The notes beneath the pieces are model-generated. The model worked only from the letters and a program-made list of their open reading frames with translations. It did not search any database and was not told where the DNA came from. The position numbers were made by a program, and so were the translations under genes. A DNA stretch of 64,000 bases from positions 39,743-103,742 of the IMG/VR virus record IMGVR_UViG_3300012943_000001; one strand, written 5' to 3'. The stretch comes from a virus (lineage: Duplodnaviria > Heunggongvirae > Uroviricota > Caudoviricetes). Each line of letters opens with the position of its first letter. Position 1 is the first letter of the stretch. Positions 41,033 to 44,341 of the stretch are shown here, piece after piece.

Positions 41033-41372
41033 GGGCGTGTTCATGGATTCGCCTTCCGTTGTATTTGAAAGTGGCAAGCAGAAGAATGATTACCGTCTTC
41101 TTAAAAAACGTGGTCAAATTACAAACGACCTTTGTATGCTTAAAGCGTCCTAACCGACCTTTCGTCAACCCATAGAAGCCTGATAAGTGGAGTTTGACGT
41201 TAAACATTGGGCAAAACTATTTACGCTCAGGGTTGTTGGTACAACTAGAGAAAAACTGCCCAGAGTAGGTCGCTCGTTAGCGAAATGGGTTGTACTTAGA
41301 AACGAGACAAGCTTGTAGATGCTGTAGAAGAATACGGGAGATACAGGGGTTCGACTCCCCTCACGTCCACCA
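41033..41372 (+). ncRNA. ssrA: tmRNA (one-piece), predicted tag (A)TNDLCMLKAS*
   Basis: 5' GGGCGTG..GGATTCG pairs with 3' T-arm GGGGTTCGACTCCCC + CACGTCC-ACCA (G3.U70 pair); 340 nt; internal ORF 41121..41153 after CAAATT; upstream TTGACA-17-TAACTT. Confidence 0.92.
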
Positions 41373-41378
41373 ATTTAT

Positions 41379-41888
41379 ATGTTTCACAACAAAAAACACT
41401 ATCCTCAGTTGGCTGTTCTCGAAGACAACTTTGAGGTCATACGCAAAGAGTATGAGCAGATTAAAAAACTGAGAATGTACAAGTGGCCAGAAAAGGAAAA
41501 ATACAAGGGTAGCTGGTCAACTTTTGGACTCTATCATAACGGCAGGAAGTTAAAGACAAGTTCTAAGCAATGTCCGAAGACGGTAGAGTTGATTGAAAGT
41601 ATGGGTAAGGTCGCTATGGCAGGCTTTTCCATCATGGCCCCGGGCACACAGATTCATGCTCACGTAGATAAGGTTCCCACGTTTGTTTATAGGGTGCATC
41701 TTGGTATTGATATACCAAAGGGAGAGTGTAGTTTTTGGGTCAATGGTGCATGTAAAAAATGGGGCGACGGCGAGGCATTTTTATTTGACCCTTTACTGGT
41801 TCATAGTGCATGGAACAGGACCACGGAAAACAGAGTTATTTTACTCTTAGATTTTGAAAGCTTTAATCCGCCAGCCTCCAGACAGTAA
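41379..41888 (+). CDS. Aspartyl/asparaginyl beta-hydroxylase family 2OG-Fe(II) oxygenase
   Basis: CPKTVELI, GFSIMAPGTQIHAHVD (HxD), RVHLGI, W.DGEAFLFD...HSAWN....R.ILLLD. Confidence 0.9.
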   Translation: MFHNKKHYPQLAVLEDNFEVIRKEYEQIKKLRMYKWPEKEKYKGSWSTFGLYHNGRKLKTSSKQCPKTVELIESMGKVAMAGFSIMAPGTQIHAHVDKVPTFVYRVHLGIDIPKGECSFWVNGACKKWGDGEAFLFDPLLVHSAWNRTTENRVILLLDFESFNPPASRQ

Positions 41889-42087: not shown

Positions 42088-42348
42088 ATGAAGTTATGGC
42101 TTACAAAATGTCATGGTGGTCGCTATATGGTTACGTTATTCAAACCAATTATTGCGAGGATTAGAGGAACGGAGTATATGGATGCGTTTGAAAAGGTGGG
42201 AGAACCAATTGCGGTAAAACATCTTTGTGAGCCGGGTATAAAATCCTTGCTCGGCCTGACGCTTGAACCGCTCACTCCAACGAAAATCGAGATAACGGCA
42301 AACGTTCTCGTCACTCTTGAAAAAGAAGAAGATGAAGATTCTAGTTGA
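42088..42348 (+). CDS. Hypothetical protein
   Basis: 86-aa ORF. Confidence 0.55.
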   Translation: MKLWLTKCHGGRYMVTLFKPIIARIRGTEYMDAFEKVGEPIAVKHLCEPGIKSLLGLTLEPLTPTKIEITANVLVTLEKEEDEDSS

Positions 42349-42372
42349 CATTCTTGAAACTCTAAGTATTAT
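42345..42372 (+). promoter_or_regulatory. Sigma70-like promoter for the ncRNA cassette / Ro60 locus
   Basis: TTGACA-16-TATTAT with nested TTGAAA 9 bp downstream of the -35. Confidence 0.6.
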
Positions 42373-42402
42373 AGGTATAGTTCTTTTAAGTTAATTTCAA
42401 AC

Positions 42403-42545
42403 GTCCCATTCTCGGGACTACAAGGAAGCAAGGTAGAGGCGTTCATCGTCATTGCTATATGAAACGCCAACCCCACTGTCGCAAGACAAGGGAGCAGAGC
42501 CCGTAAGGGCGATGACCAGTAATGTTCATCAAACTGTCCTCTCCA
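42403..42545 (+). ncRNA. Candidate novel structured RNA (multi-hairpin, pseudoknot-capable)
   Basis: GTCCC/GGGAC hairpin; GGCGTTCAT/ATGAAACGCC stem; TGTC-GCAA-GACA and GCCC-GTAA-GGGC GNRA hairpins; loop GTCATTGC complementary to GCGATGAC. Confidence 0.6.
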
Positions 42546-42563
42546 ATTTTCTCCTTAAAATTT

Positions 42564-42610
42564 GCCCGACCTTTTGTGGTTCGGAGGTTTGAATCCTCCA
42601 TCGGGCACCA
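42564..42610 (+). ncRNA. tRNA-like minihelix (acceptor stem + T arm + ACCA; no D or anticodon arm)
   Basis: GCCCGA..TCGGGC-ACCA acceptor stem and GGAGG-TTTGAAT-CCTCC T arm, joined by only about 12 nt. Confidence 0.7.
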
Positions 42611-42659
42611 TTTTGGCTTCATCTCTGACGTTTTTCATTTTTCGTCGGCATGAAGCTAA

Positions 42660-42680
42660 GGCCGTAACTATAACGGTCCT
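42660..42680 (+). ncRNA. Exact copy of 23S rRNA helix 69 (GGCCGTAACTATAACGGTCCT)
   Basis: Identical, as I recall the sequence, to E. coli 23S nt 1906-1926; no other rRNA sequence flanks it. Confidence 0.8.
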
Positions 42681-42682
42681 TT

Positions 42683-42723
42683 AAGGCGATTTCGTTTCAT
42701 CACGAGTCGCCTTTTTTATTTTT
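42683..42723 (+). terminator. Intrinsic terminator ending the ncRNA cassette, upstream of the Ro60 gene
   Basis: AAGGCGAT-TTCGT..ACGA-GTCGCCTT stem followed by TTTTTTATTTTT. Confidence 0.75.
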
Positions 42724-42754
42724 AACACTAACACATCAAGGAATAAGGAAACAT

Positions 42755-44317
42755 ATGGCAAAGTTTAATACAAAGTCAAATAGGGTTAAGGCAGCAAAGC
42801 AAGTACGTGCATCCAAGGGTGCGACTAAGAGCAAGGTTGTAATCAATCGTGCGGGCGGCTTTGCGTACTCAATGAAGGATAAGACGGAACTCGTCACGCT
42901 TCTTCTAACCTCATTCGTAGCAGACAGTTTCTACGAAAAGGGTCAGGATACGGCAAAGCGTGTCCAAGAGCTTATCGCAAAAATTCCAGACAAGCAATTC
43001 GTCGCAAAGGCTGCGGTCTACGCACGTAAGACGTTTGGTATGCGTTCCATCTCCCATCTTGTTGCGGGCTTGCTTGCACAAGAGGCATCCATCAAGGGTC
43101 AGGAGTGGACAAAGACCTTCTTCGACAAGGTAGTCCACCGTGTTGACGACATGTTGGAAATCATTTCCTTCACACAGAAGGACGGTAAGAAGCCATTGCC
43201 AAATTCCTTGAAGAAGGGTTTCCGCTCTGCGTTCGACCGTTTCGATACGTACCAATTGAGCAAGTACCAAGCTGACAACGCAGGTTTGAAGCTTGTAGAT
43301 TTGGTGAACATCATTCACCCAATCCCAACCGAGCGTAACAAGGACGGCTTGAACGCACTTATCAATGGTAAGTTGAAGAACCTTACAACGTCTCAAACGG
43401 CGTTGACTAACATTGGTCAGGTCGCCAAGAACGACGAAGAGAAGGCGGAGCTACGTAAGGACTATTGGAAGACCGTTCTAACCAATCGTAAGCTTGGCTA
43501 CACGGACCTAGTTCGTTCCCTTACGAAGATTGCCAAGGACGCACCAGATGCGGTTGATTTGGCGGTCGCAACGCTTACAGACGAAACTCTAATCAAGAAG
43601 AGTCTTGTAATGCCATACCAGCTTTATATCGCCATGAAGATGGTCGAGAAGGAGCTTGGAGCCACCTCTGAGTGCCGTAAGCTTTCTGCGGGCCTAGCAA
43701 AGGCCGTAGACATCTCATGCAACAACGTTCCTACCTTCGGTGGTAAGACCGTAGTTGTCGTTGACCGTTCAGGTTCTATGGATAGCCCGCTTTCCAATGG
43801 AAAGACGGACGTTCTTAAGATGTCTGAGGTAGGCACACTTATGGCGTTGTTCCTTGCACGTAACAACGACACTGACTTCGTTATCTTCGGAGACGACGCT
43901 AAGTATGTTCCTTACAATGCAAACGATTCCATCTTGACATCCGTCAAGACACTCCTTGGTTACAATCAGGGCTATGGTCACGCGGGCAACTACAACGTTG
44001 GTCACGGAACGAACTTCCACGCAATCTTCAAAACATTGAACAAGAAGTACGACCGCGTTATCATCTTCTCTGACATGCAGGGTTGGGCGGGCGGTCACTA
44101 CAGCCTAAATGGCGACATTGACTGGTACGCAAAGAAGTATGGTGCAAGGCCATTCTTGTATAGCCATGACCTTCGTGGTCACGGTTCTCTTCAAATTCCA
44201 GAAGAGAAGACATTCGTATCTGCCGGATTCTCTGAAAAGATTTTCGACGTTATGAAGCTTCTTGAGCAAGACAAGGAAGCGTTGGTCAACTCAATCGAAA
44301 AAGAGGTAACTCTTTAA
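42755..44317 (+). CDS. rsr: Ro60/Rsr TROVE-domain RNA-binding protein with vWA domain
   Basis: INRAGGFAY, AVYARKTFGMRS, FDTYQLSKY, MPYQLYIA, VVVDRSGSM (MIDAS), VIIFSDMQ, AGFSEKIF; strong SD AAGGA. Confidence 0.93.
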   Translation: MAKFNTKSNRVKAAKQVRASKGATKSKVVINRAGGFAYSMKDKTELVTLLLTSFVADSFYEKGQDTAKRVQELIAKIPDKQFVAKAAVYARKTFGMRSISHLVAGLLAQEASIKGQEWTKTFFDKVVHRVDDMLEIISFTQKDGKKPLPNSLKKGFRSAFDRFDTYQLSKYQADNAGLKLVDLVNIIHPIPTERNKDGLNALINGKLKNLTTSQTALTNIGQVAKNDEEKAELRKDYWKTVLTNRKLGYTDLVRSLTKIAKDAPDAVDLAVATLTDETLIKKSLVMPYQLYIAMKMVEKELGATSECRKLSAGLAKAVDISCNNVPTFGGKTVVVVDRSGSMDSPLSNGKTDVLKMSEVGTLMALFLARNNDTDFVIFGDDAKYVPYNANDSILTSVKTLLGYNQGYGHAGNYNVGHGTNFHAIFKTLNKKYDRVIIFSDMQGWAGGHYSLNGDIDWYAKKYGARPFLYSHDLRGHGSLQIPEEKTFVSAGFSEKIFDVMKLLEQDKEALVNSIEKEVTL

Positions 44318-44341
44318 CGGTTAGTTAGTTCTAGTTTATAC

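What the first reader, a model, noticed from the sequence alone, without database searches (positions are those of the whole stretch)
42660..42680. Exact 21-nt copy of 23S rRNA helix 69 in a phage intergenic region
Seen: GGCCGTAACTATAACGGTCCT, folding as a 6-bp stem with AACTATA loop. Established (recalled sequence): this is E. coli 23S nt 1906-1926, the near-universal H69 that forms intersubunit bridge B2a, contacts A/P-site tRNAs, release factors and RRF, and is modified by RluD and RlmH. Rough chance estimate for any 21-mer of about 4.5 kb of rRNA matching either strand of 64 kb is about 1e-4. The match stops at the helix boundary, which favours a retained module over a random rRNA fragment. 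Inference: an RNA decoy for an H69-binding factor or nuclease, or a DNA-level remnant/decoy of a homing site, since it overlaps the left part of the I-CeuI target.
Basis: partly seen in the sequence, partly recalled or inferred. Interest (0 to 1): 0.88.

Follow-up and report, generated by a model that had tools for sequence, protein, structure and literature searches.

The report
Ribosome helix-69 copy in phage Ro60 RNA
A jumbo phage carries an exact copy of one of the ribosome's most conserved hairpins (23S rRNA helix 69) as a swappable module of a small non-coding RNA made next to its Ro60 RNA-binding ring protein, which suggests phage Ro60 particles use ribosome look-alike parts as well as the known tRNA look-alikes.

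Summary
Observation confirmed. Window 42660-42680 is identical to E. coli 23S nt 1906-1926 (H69 plus 2 nt). It is unique in the complete 205-kb phage genome, which has no 23S gene; chance expectation is about 6e-4. The region is not plain intergenic DNA. The hairpin is the last module of a ~340-nt promoter-to-terminator non-coding RNA (42380-42722) directly upstream of a Ro60/Rsr gene. That RNA has a covarying Y-RNA-like scaffold, a mini-tRNA ending in CCA, a U-loop hairpin, the H69 hairpin and a terminator. Two related phages keep the hairpin (6/6 pairs, one compensatory pair, flanks unalignable). Nine other relatives carry different hairpins in that slot, a second mini-tRNA, or in one case a 16-nt copy of 23S 241-256. 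Two unrelated Rsr loci carry sense-strand 23S pieces (28 nt of 1909-1936; 241-256) among Y RNAs and tRNAs. Best reading (0.6): an rRNA-mimic module of a Ro60-partner RNA, analogous to the tRNA mimicry of YrlA. The partner it engages is inferred, not shown. A homing-site remnant is unlikely here, although similar 23S segments elsewhere in phages are not Ro60-linked and one lies beside an HNH endonuclease gene. I found no publication of this. This scan has noted H69 copies in Ro60-linked RNAs before on other phage DNA.

The parts
42345..42372 (+). Sigma-70-type promoter TTGACA-16-TATTAT (11 of 12 matches) driving the non-coding RNA
   Evidence: The position is conserved in relatives, which have TAGAAT as the -10 box (alignment A1). 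No other + strand promoter lies between here and the rsr start.
42380..42722 (+). Whole non-coding transcript (approximate ends), from promoter to terminator
   Evidence: Fold z = -5.1. The block structure is conserved in 10 related loci. No Rfam family matches it.
42424..42552 (+). Y-RNA-like scaffold: a long bulged closing stem (42424-42440 with 42536-42552) around a multi-branched core that includes GNRA-capped hairpins
   Evidence: RNAalifold on 9 sequences: 37 pairs, 15 of them with compensatory changes. Coordinates.
42564..42610 (+). Mini-tRNA: acceptor stem GCCCGA/UCGGGC, T arm GGAGG-UUUGAAU-CCUCC, discriminator A and an encoded CCA
   Evidence: Sequence. The T-arm pairs covary (columns 222-226 with 234-238). 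ARAGORN and the Rfam tRNA model do not call it.
42614..42658 (+). Long hairpin with a pyrimidine-rich loop (UUUUUCAUUUUU); first cassette of the variable slot
   Evidence: Fold. The position is variable among relatives.
42660..42680 (+). Exact copy of 23S rRNA nt 1906-1926 (helix 69: 6-bp stem, AACUAUA loop, plus CU); second cassette of the variable slot
42683..42722 (+). Intrinsic terminator (AAGGCGA...UCGCCUU stem followed by U6AU4), conserved in all relatives
   Evidence: Fold and alignment A1. The pattern scanner missed it because the stem has a bulge.
42755..44317 (+). Ro60/Rsr (TROVE) protein gene, 520 aa, with Shine-Dalgarno AAGGA; probably expressed by read-through of the RNA's terminator
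   Evidence: Pfam TROVE E = 3.9e-10. Full-length match to Thermus phage Ro60 structures 9KOP/9L5Y (residues 33-513, E = 1.1e-16) and to Xenopus Ro60 1YVP. 1451 homologues found.

Best explanation
The 21-mer is a selectively maintained RNA copy of 23S rRNA helix 69. It is one interchangeable cassette in a ~340-nt non-coding transcript made from a single promoter just upstream of the phage's Ro60/Rsr gene. The transcript has a Y-RNA-like scaffold (a long bulged stem closing a multi-branched core), a CCA-ended mini-tRNA, a U-loop hairpin, the H69 hairpin and a terminator. The Ro60 gene has no promoter of its own and is probably expressed by terminator read-through, so RNA and protein would be made together with the RNA in excess. 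Shown: the anatomy, the conservation pattern, the pairing with Ro60, and the recurrence of 23S pieces at unrelated Ro60 loci. Inferred mechanism: bacterial YrlA Y RNAs pair a Ro60-binding stem with a tRNA-like domain, and I propose this RNA (whole or after processing at its A/U-rich spacers) likewise displays the universally conserved H69 surface as a bait or adaptor module. H69's natural partners are the 30S decoding centre (bridge B2a), A/P-site tRNA, release and recycling factors, and RluD/RlmH. The module would therefore either tether the Ro60 ring, and whichever nuclease it recruits (host PNPase in known cases), to one of these partners, or sequester that partner. Which partner is engaged is unknown.
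For: (1) Exact identity to 23S 1906-1926, unique in the genome and far above chance. (2) The hairpin lies on the transcribed strand between a near-consensus promoter and a conserved terminator, in a strongly structured RNA. (3) The downstream gene is a bona fide full-length Ro60, and Ro60 genes in bacteria and phages are known to sit beside their Y RNAs (PMC4201824; PMC12135203). (4) Scaffold and T arm show covariation: 15 of 37 pairs have compensatory changes across 9 phages. (5) The hairpin recurs in L011 and L012, whose Rsr proteins are 68% and 57% identical to the window's. All six pairs are kept, U-A is replaced by C-G in L012, 16 of 19 helix positions are invariant, and the flanks are unalignable; in L012 the hairpin sits at a different place in the slot. 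(6) The relatives' loop variant AACUACA was found in no 23S gene among representative genomes of 185,579 species, so these are not recent captures of host rRNA. (7) The same slot in L003 carries 16 nt identical to 23S 241-256, and L009/L010 carry a second mini-tRNA there, so the slot holds mimic cassettes. (8) Independent Rsr lineages carry sense-strand 23S pieces in their RNA arrays. L192 has 28 nt of 1909-1936 between tRNAs, upstream of a YrlA-like RNA and rsr. L304 has 241-256 as the first element after a promoter, ahead of three YrlA-like RNAs, next to a TROVE gene. (9) The phage invests heavily in translation RNAs: 52 tRNAs, a tmRNA and a CCA-adding enzyme.
Against: The scaffold is not recognised by the Rfam YrlA model or any other family, so calling it a Y RNA rests on position and architecture alone. 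Only 3 of 12 clade members with readable sequence carry the hairpin, so it is dispensable for the core function. The single compensatory pair is weak statistically: 120 of 500 shuffles do as well. The L304 RNA does not fold better than shuffles (z = 0.05), and the closing stem of the L003 module is not significant (p about 0.09). 23S 1910-1929 segments also occur in phage contigs with no TROVE or DUF2828 gene, so an H69-like sequence does not by itself imply a Ro60 link.
Confidence: 0.6

Rival explanations
1. Generic hairpin of rRNA origin. The sequence was once captured from a 23S gene and is kept only as a stable stem-loop, for example to protect the 3' end or as a processing or spacing element ahead of the terminator. 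On this view no factor reads its H69 identity.
For: The slot holds unrelated hairpins in 9 of 12 relatives, which suggests any stable hairpin may serve. The hairpin lies directly before the terminator in the window and in L011.
Against: A generic hairpin should drift in its loop and tolerate stem changes. Instead 6 of 7 loop positions and 5 of 6 pairs are identical across phages whose flanks are unalignable. Unrelated Rsr loci carry pieces of the same two 23S regions.
Confidence: 0.15
2. Ro60-independent decoy. After processing at the mini-tRNA or the A/U-rich spacers, the hairpin is released as a small RNA. It acts alone as a sponge for an H69-recognising host factor or an anti-phage ribonuclease, much as phage tRNAs are thought to replace or shield host tRNAs.
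For: The encoded CCA and tRNA-like fold suggest RNase P/Z-type processing upstream of the cassette. YrlA RNAs are RNase P substrates (PMC4201824). 23S-identical segments also occur in phages without Ro60.
Against: No toxin or defence nuclease specific for H69 is known to me, and none was found in the literature searches. The sense-strand cases I found cluster at Rsr loci (window clade, L192, L304). Several Ro60-less cases are on the strand opposite to the neighbouring tRNA genes.
Confidence: 0.12
3. DNA-level element: a remnant or decoy of a homing-endonuclease or recombination site derived from the 23S rDNA region targeted by I-CeuI-type enzymes.
For: The 21-mer covers the left 16 nt of the 26-bp I-CeuI site. 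L192's 28-mer spans the entire site. In L268 a 23S 1910-1929 segment lies 54 nt from an HNH endonuclease gene inside a tRNA array. Many phage copies lack the 5' strand of the helix.
Against: In the window the identity follows the RNA helix, not the enzyme site. The right half-site is displaced by 2 nt and then diverges. No endonuclease domain was found in the six flanking ORFs tested. L012 shows a compensatory change that preserves pairing rather than sequence. The element lies inside a transcribed structured RNA.
Confidence: 0.08
4. Chance match or assembly chimera with host rRNA.
For: None beyond the fact that the record is a metagenome assembly.
Against: About 6e-4 such matches are expected per genome. 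Only 21 nt are shared, with no further rRNA on either side. The hairpin sits in a frame conserved across independent assemblies, and variants of it occur in L011 and L012.
Confidence: 0.02

Closest known systems
YrlA-type bacterial and phage Y RNAs bound by Rsr/Ro60 (Rfam RF02553; Chen et al. 2014, PMC4201824; Thermus phage phiLo Yrl1/Yrl2, PMC12135203)
   Same: Both are encoded directly beside a Ro60/Rsr gene. Both have a long bulged stem closing a structured core and a modular design in which one module imitates a translation RNA (tRNA). Both occur in large phages. The literature proposes that the mimic module mediates contacts with ribosomes, translation factors or tRNA-binding proteins.
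   Different: The YrlA covariance model does not match. The tRNA-like part is a contiguous acceptor/T-arm minihelix placed 3' of the scaffold, not a D/T/acceptor domain inside the loop. The RNA also carries an rRNA (H69) copy, which I did not find described for any Y RNA.
23S rRNA helix 69 itself (E. coli nt 1906-1924; intersubunit bridge B2a)
   Same: Identical sequence over 21 nt, with the same 6-bp stem (including the G-U pair) and the same 7-nt loop.
   Different: It is an isolated 21-nt copy in a phage RNA, with no surrounding domain IV. The phage has no rRNA gene. Whether the loop uridines are pseudouridylated as in the ribosome is unknown.
rRNA-mimicking regulatory elements (ribosomal-protein leader mimics of rRNA binding sites; the '23S-methyl' motif upstream of rRNA methyltransferase genes). 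This comparison is from my own knowledge and was not tested here.
   Same: A short RNA element imitates a piece of rRNA so that an rRNA-binding protein recognises it.
   Different: Those are cis-regulatory mRNA leaders that resemble rRNA structurally, usually without long exact identity. This is a trans-acting non-coding RNA module with 21 of 21 identity, and it is not upstream of a gene for an H69-binding protein.
I-CeuI homing site in 23S rDNA (TAACTATAACGGTCCTAAGGTAGCGA; PMC7104398, PMC2790883)
   Same: The first 16 nt of the site are present in the window. L192 carries all 26.
   Different: The window lacks the right half-site, has no endonuclease gene nearby, and shows conservation that follows RNA pairing.

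Membership tests
Y RNA (Ro60 partner RNA; YrlA RF02553) | Encoded adjacent to a Ro60/Rsr gene | tested here: met
   The RNA ends 33 nt before the start codon of a full-length TROVE/Ro60 protein gene. The synteny is conserved in 10 or more relatives.
Y RNA (Ro60 partner RNA; YrlA RF02553) | Long bulged helix closing the RNA (the Ro60-binding module) | tested here: inconclusive
   A conserved bulged stem (42424-42440 with 42536-42552), with two covarying pairs, closes the core. It does not involve the transcript's true ends, and the conserved Ro60-binding 'CGAA'-type strand mentioned in PMC12135203 is not evident.
Y RNA (Ro60 partner RNA; YrlA RF02553) | Match to the Rfam YrlA covariance model | tested here: not met
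   No YrlA hit at E up to 10 on 42370-42730. The same model does hit L192 (46.6 bits) and L304 (52.4 bits).
Y RNA (Ro60 partner RNA; YrlA RF02553) | Physical binding to Ro60 | not testable with these tools
   No protein-RNA prediction tool or binding data were available.
Y RNA (Ro60 partner RNA; YrlA RF02553) | tRNA-like domain | tested here: inconclusive
   An acceptor/T-arm minihelix with an encoded CCA and a covarying T arm is present. It is not in the YrlA arrangement, and tRNA finders do not call it.
23S rRNA helix 69 | Sequence and secondary structure of H69 (6-bp stem with a G-U pair, loop AACUAUA) | tested here: met
   21 of 21 identity to E. coli 1906-1926 and the same fold.
23S rRNA helix 69 | Part of an LSU rRNA gene | tested here: not met
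   No LSU rRNA match anywhere in the phage genome, and identity ends at the hairpin.
I-CeuI-type homing site or its remnant | Complete recognition site of about 26 bp | tested here: not met
   Only TAACTATAACGGTCCT (16 nt) is shared. After it the window reads TTAAGGCGA where the site reads AAGGTAGCGA.
I-CeuI-type homing site or its remnant | Associated homing endonuclease gene or intron | tested here: not met
   The six flanking ORFs tested carry no endonuclease domain, and Rfam finds no intron.
Ro60/TROVE protein (the neighbouring gene) | TROVE domain and full-length similarity to solved Ro60 rings | tested here: met
   PF05731 at 39.9 bits, above the cut-off of 23. 9KOP/9L5Y match over residues 33-513, E = 1.1e-16, and 1YVP at E = 1.3e-5.

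The most novel reading that the evidence does not exclude
Phage Ro60 particles are programmable. A common scaffold RNA carries exchangeable cassettes copied from the most conserved parts of the translation machinery (H69, the 23S 241-256 loop, tRNA top halves). These cassettes dock the Ro60 ring, and the exonuclease it recruits, onto ribosomal subunits or onto factors that read those elements. This would let the phage inspect, dismantle or shield host ribosomes during infection. H69, whose natural partner is the 30S decoding centre, would make the particle a 30S-directed adaptor.
Probability: 0.25. Interest if true: 0.9.

Novelty: new variant of a known kind. Interest (0 to 1): 0.72.

Why it matters
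Ro60/Y-RNA particles are conserved from bacteria to humans, yet what the variable Y-RNA modules engage remains largely open. The tRNA-like module of bacterial YrlA was found in 2014 without an identified partner. An exact, selectively kept copy of H69 in a Ro60-partner RNA, together with pieces of the same two 23S regions at unrelated phage Ro60 loci, points to the ribosome or ribosome-binding factors as the target. It also gives a concrete, mutable handle for experiments: the binding partners of H69 are among the best-characterised in biology. Finally, it extends the repertoire of molecular mimicry used by jumbo phages that bring their own translation RNAs (here 52 tRNAs, a tmRNA and a CCA-adding enzyme).

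Tried and rejected
- Nucleotide search of 42340-44320 against 50,697 phage records found no match.
- A single-protein locus search in the viral collection found no relatives. The alignment-based searches did work.
- The conserved RNA 15-mer CAATTTTCTCCTTAA as a probe for family members was too unspecific: 118+ hits, none convincing.
- Scans for the L011 and L012 hairpin variants in the viral collection gave 0 hits each.
- Hypothesis that the C-variant loop tracks the hosts' own H69: rejected. The 19 genome hits match the chance expectation of about 17, most lie in coding sequence, and none is in a 23S gene.
- Hypothesis that every phage copy of the H69 region is Ro60-linked: rejected. Five such contigs lack TROVE and DUF2828; the DUF2828 search had no positive control.
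- "Loop closed by an unrelated stem" as a general rule for the viral 16-mer hits: it holds only for a subset, and many hits lie in long ORFs and are probably chance.
- The 14-mer equal to 23S 1927-1940 elsewhere in the genome lies inside a coding region on the opposite strand and is a coincidence.
- Lead from memory that the Ro60-binding strand of metazoan Y RNAs resembles 23S 1921-1933: no Y_RNA or YrlA model hit on the E. coli segment.
- RtcB is not encoded by the phage.
- No structure or complex predictions were run, because the question is protein-RNA.
- The 2020 Annual Review on bacterial Ro60 is not in the held library.

Full report
**1. The observation**

The sequence GGCCGTAACTATAACGGTCCT is present once, at window 42660-42680 on the + strand. 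No other site lies within three mismatches, and none appears in 100 shuffles. I fetched a genuine E. coli rRNA operon (L261); the 21-mer equals 23S nt 1906-1926 exactly. The Rfam bacterial LSU consensus for this segment is GgCCGUAACUAUAACGGuC, drawn as a 6-bp stem and 7-nt loop, and the window copy folds the same way.

The window belongs to a complete 205,462-bp virus record with direct terminal repeats and no LSU rRNA gene. Over that whole genome this is the only rRNA match above chance: about 6e-4 matches of 21 nt or more are expected, while the eight 14-15-mers found match the chance expectation of about nine. The identity begins exactly at the first helix base and runs 2 nt past the last.

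**2. What surrounds it**

The region is not empty intergenic DNA. The ORF that starts 75 nt downstream (42755-44317) is a Ro60/Rsr protein. It has a Pfam TROVE domain and matches the Thermus phage Ro60 structures 9KOP/9L5Y over residues 33-513 (E = 1.1e-16), as well as Xenopus Ro60.

The 400-nt gap before it starts with a near-consensus promoter, TTGACA-16-TATTAT, at 42345-42372. It ends with a bulged stem followed by U6AU4, and it folds far better than shuffles (z = -5.1; z = -8.5 for the 3' part). No other + strand promoter lies between this RNA and the rsr start. The protein gene is therefore probably expressed by terminator read-through; this is an inference. A tmRNA gene lies 1.3 kb upstream (87.9 bits).

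**3. Anatomy from comparison**

The Rsr protein has close relatives, 53-76% identical, on contigs of about 200 kb. I fetched 12 of their loci. All have the same layout: an Asp/Arg hydroxylase gene, a gap of about 400 nt, then rsr. Aligning the gaps (A1; A3) shows five blocks:
- a promoter;
- a conserved scaffold in which a long bulged stem (42424-42440 with 42536-42552) closes a multi-branched core;
- a minihelix with acceptor stem, T arm and encoded CCA (42564-42610);
- a region that cannot be aligned;
- a conserved terminator.

RNAalifold predicts 37 pairs, 15 with compensatory changes, in the closing stem, internal hairpins and T arm. Rfam recognises none of this. In position and architecture the RNA resembles a Y RNA, but it fails the YrlA model.

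**4. The hairpin is a cassette in the variable slot**

In the window the slot holds a long hairpin with a U-rich loop (42614-42658) and then the H69 copy. L011 has GGCCGUAACUACAACGGUC at the same place. L012 has GGCCGCAACUACAGCGGUC directly after the CCA.

Aligned with E. coli, all copies keep 6 of 6 pairs. One pair changes from U-A to C-G in L012. Sixteen of 19 helix positions are invariant, while the flanks share nothing. With four sequences the single compensatory event is not significant on its own (120 of 500 shuffles do as well). The contrast between the conserved helix and the unalignable flanks is the stronger argument.

The other nine relatives carry different content in the slot. L009 and L010 have a second mini-tRNA. 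L003 has 16 nt identical to 23S 241-256 (32.2 bits; 30 shuffle sets gave at most 30.2), and L005 and L002 share its core. Its closing stem is only suggestive.

The loop variant AACUACA was found in no 23S gene among one genome from each of 185,579 species. The 19 hits equal the chance expectation and are mostly coding. The relatives' copies are therefore not fresh captures from a host.

**5. Independent lineages**

I scanned 141 Rsr loci (579 kb) and 118 unrelated viral loci (969 kb) for exact rRNA matches. The Rsr set yielded a 28-nt match in L192 (23S 1909-1936), whose chance expectation is about 1e-7, and the 16-nt L003 match. The control set had nothing of 16 nt or longer.

L192 is a different lineage (Rsr about 45% identical). 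Its 23S piece lies on the same strand as the genes, between two tRNAs, inside a domain closed by a long bulged stem. It is upstream of a YrlA-like RNA (46.6 bits, E = 2e-8) and of rsr.

A scan of the viral collection for 23S 241-256 found L304, from a 268-kb phage. There the segment is the first element after a consensus promoter, just downstream of a TROVE gene, and is followed by three YrlA-like RNAs and several tRNAs on the same strand. The L304 RNA does not fold better than chance, so that case rests on position alone.

**6. Limits of the association**

The viral collection also holds many copies of 23S 1910-1929 (GTAACTATAACGGTCCYAAG) outside rRNA genes. These occur in at least 12 flank families and usually lack the 5' strand of the helix.

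Five such contigs, two of them at least 90% complete, encode no TROVE or DUF2828 protein (the DUF2828 search had no positive control). In one phage family the motif follows a spanin-like lipoprotein gene on the opposite strand. In L268 it lies 54 nt from an HNH endonuclease gene in a tRNA array. Near tRNA arrays these copies are on the strand opposite to the tRNAs.

These cases may be DNA-level or antisense elements. They keep the homing-site idea alive in general and show that an H69-like sequence is not always tied to Ro60.

For the window itself that idea fits poorly. Only 16 nt of the 26-bp I-CeuI site are present (site confirmed in PMC7104398 and PMC2790883). The right half is displaced and diverges. 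No endonuclease domain was found in the flanking ORFs tested. Conservation follows RNA pairing.

**7. Mechanism**

Established (PMC4201824; PMC12135203): Ro60/Rsr genes in bacteria and phages lie beside Y RNAs. Y RNAs gate the Ro60 ring and tether it to other proteins such as PNPase. YrlA RNAs carry a tRNA-like domain whose partner is unknown and which the authors suggest may contact ribosomes, translation factors or tRNA-binding proteins. A phage Ro60 assembles with phage Y-like RNAs and host PNPase.

Inference: the H69 cassette plays the same kind of role as the tRNA-like module. It would be a bait or adaptor that presents a universally conserved ribosomal surface.

From general knowledge, not tested here: H69 contacts the 30S decoding centre (bridge B2a), A/P-site tRNAs, and release and recycling factors, and it is modified by RluD and RlmH. 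Any of these could be the partner.

The phage's other investments in translation RNA (52 tRNAs, a CCA-adding enzyme, a tmRNA) fit a role at the ribosome. It has no RtcB, so the Salmonella-type repair operon is not reproduced. I put 0.6 on 'functional rRNA-mimic module of a Ro60-partner RNA' and much less on any specific partner.

**8. Comparison and novelty**

The closest known system is Rsr with YrlA-type Y RNAs. The kind of system (Ro60 plus a modular mimic RNA in a large phage) is known; the review of jumbo phages notes TROVE proteins with a tRNA-like partner (PMC7824862). What appears new is a scaffold that the YrlA model does not recognise and cargo copied from rRNA.

Five full-text searches and four papers read gave no description of an rRNA or H69 mimic in a Y RNA. 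Absence from this library is not proof.

Earlier AI notes of this scan (e1-5378725, e1-5378739) report H69 copies and rRNA/tRNA cargo in Ro60-linked RNA arrays of other phages, so the scan has found this before on other DNA. I treat those notes as leads. L192 and L304 are my own independent confirmations of the same pattern.

**9. What could not be done**

Protein-RNA binding and partner identification were also out of reach. The experiments and the collection-wide covariance-model survey that would decide between the readings are listed under next steps.

Noticed in passing
window 41033-41372 (+): Phage-encoded tmRNA (Rfam RF00023, 87.9 bits, full length) 1.3 kb upstream of the Ro60 RNA locus. 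ARAGORN did not call it.
   Followed up: partly
own genome outside the window: G000:C1:156400-179670 and 196825-197178: The phage carries 52 tRNA genes in one large + strand array and a CCA-adding enzyme (PolyA_pol family, 130.7 bits). It has no RtcB and no rRNA gene.
   Followed up: partly
window 41379-41888 (+): An Asp/Asn beta-hydroxylase-family (cupin) gene is conserved immediately upstream of the Ro60 RNA in most relatives, duplicated in L003. Any functional link to the RNA/Ro60 module is unknown.
   Followed up: no
L003:2880-2895; L005 and L002 at the aligned position: The same cassette slot in a close relative carries 16 nt identical to 23S 241-256 (AGTAGCGGCGAGCGAA), possibly as a loop closed by CUACU/GGUAG. 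L005 and L002 share the core AGCGGCGAG or CAGCGGCG.
   Followed up: partly
L295:14830-14845, L301:7968-7983, L303:6842-6858: 23S 241-256 appears in other phages as a loop closed by perfectly complementary stems of unrelated sequence (7, 6 and 10 bp). In L295 and L301 it is on the same strand as nearby tRNAs. No Ro60 gene was seen in these short loci.
   Followed up: partly
L270, L273, L279, L284 (for example L279:1543-1558): In one phage family the 23S 1910-1925 core is perfectly conserved 17-30 nt beyond the stop of a homologous ~140-aa lipoprotein gene (spanin-like, 53-62% identical), on the opposite strand. L279's and L273's records were searched and have no TROVE or DUF2828 gene.
   Followed up: partly
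L268:1882-1901 and 1409-1828: 23S 1910-1929 is flanked by the 6-bp stem ATTTCT/AGAAAT. It lies 54 nt from the start of an HNH endonuclease gene (Pfam E = 1.7e-5), inside a tRNA array and on the strand opposite to the tRNAs.
   Followed up: partly
L292:7044-7094: 23S 1909-1925 followed by CAAGGTA lies in a 30-nt loop closed by ATCGGGC/GCCCGAT, in a 105-kb complete phage that lacks TROVE and DUF2828.
   Followed up: no
L315:3891-3914, L325:2773-2797, L328:2049-2070: Three bacterial MAG contigs carry the L011-type variant hairpin GGCCGTAACTACAACGGTC in intergenic DNA. Each has 3-5 further bases of 23S identity and ordinary cellular neighbours (Na+/H+ exchanger, histidine phosphatase, YgjP-like). 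Their origin is unclear.
   Followed up: partly
window 42681-42700 and the aligned terminators of all relatives: The conserved 5' arm of the terminator (UUUAAGGCGAAUCG in relatives) loosely resembles 23S 1925-1940 (CCUAAGGUAGCGAAAUUC). This might be a remnant of a longer ancestral 23S capture. Not tested statistically.
   Followed up: no
L304:4650-5410 (minus strand): Each YrlA-like or tRNA-like unit of this array is preceded by the repeated motif GGCUGAAUGCCGA(A/U)(G/U)G.(G/A)ACUACAU, probably the shared Ro60-binding strand of that lineage. The window RNA has no counterpart.
   Followed up: no
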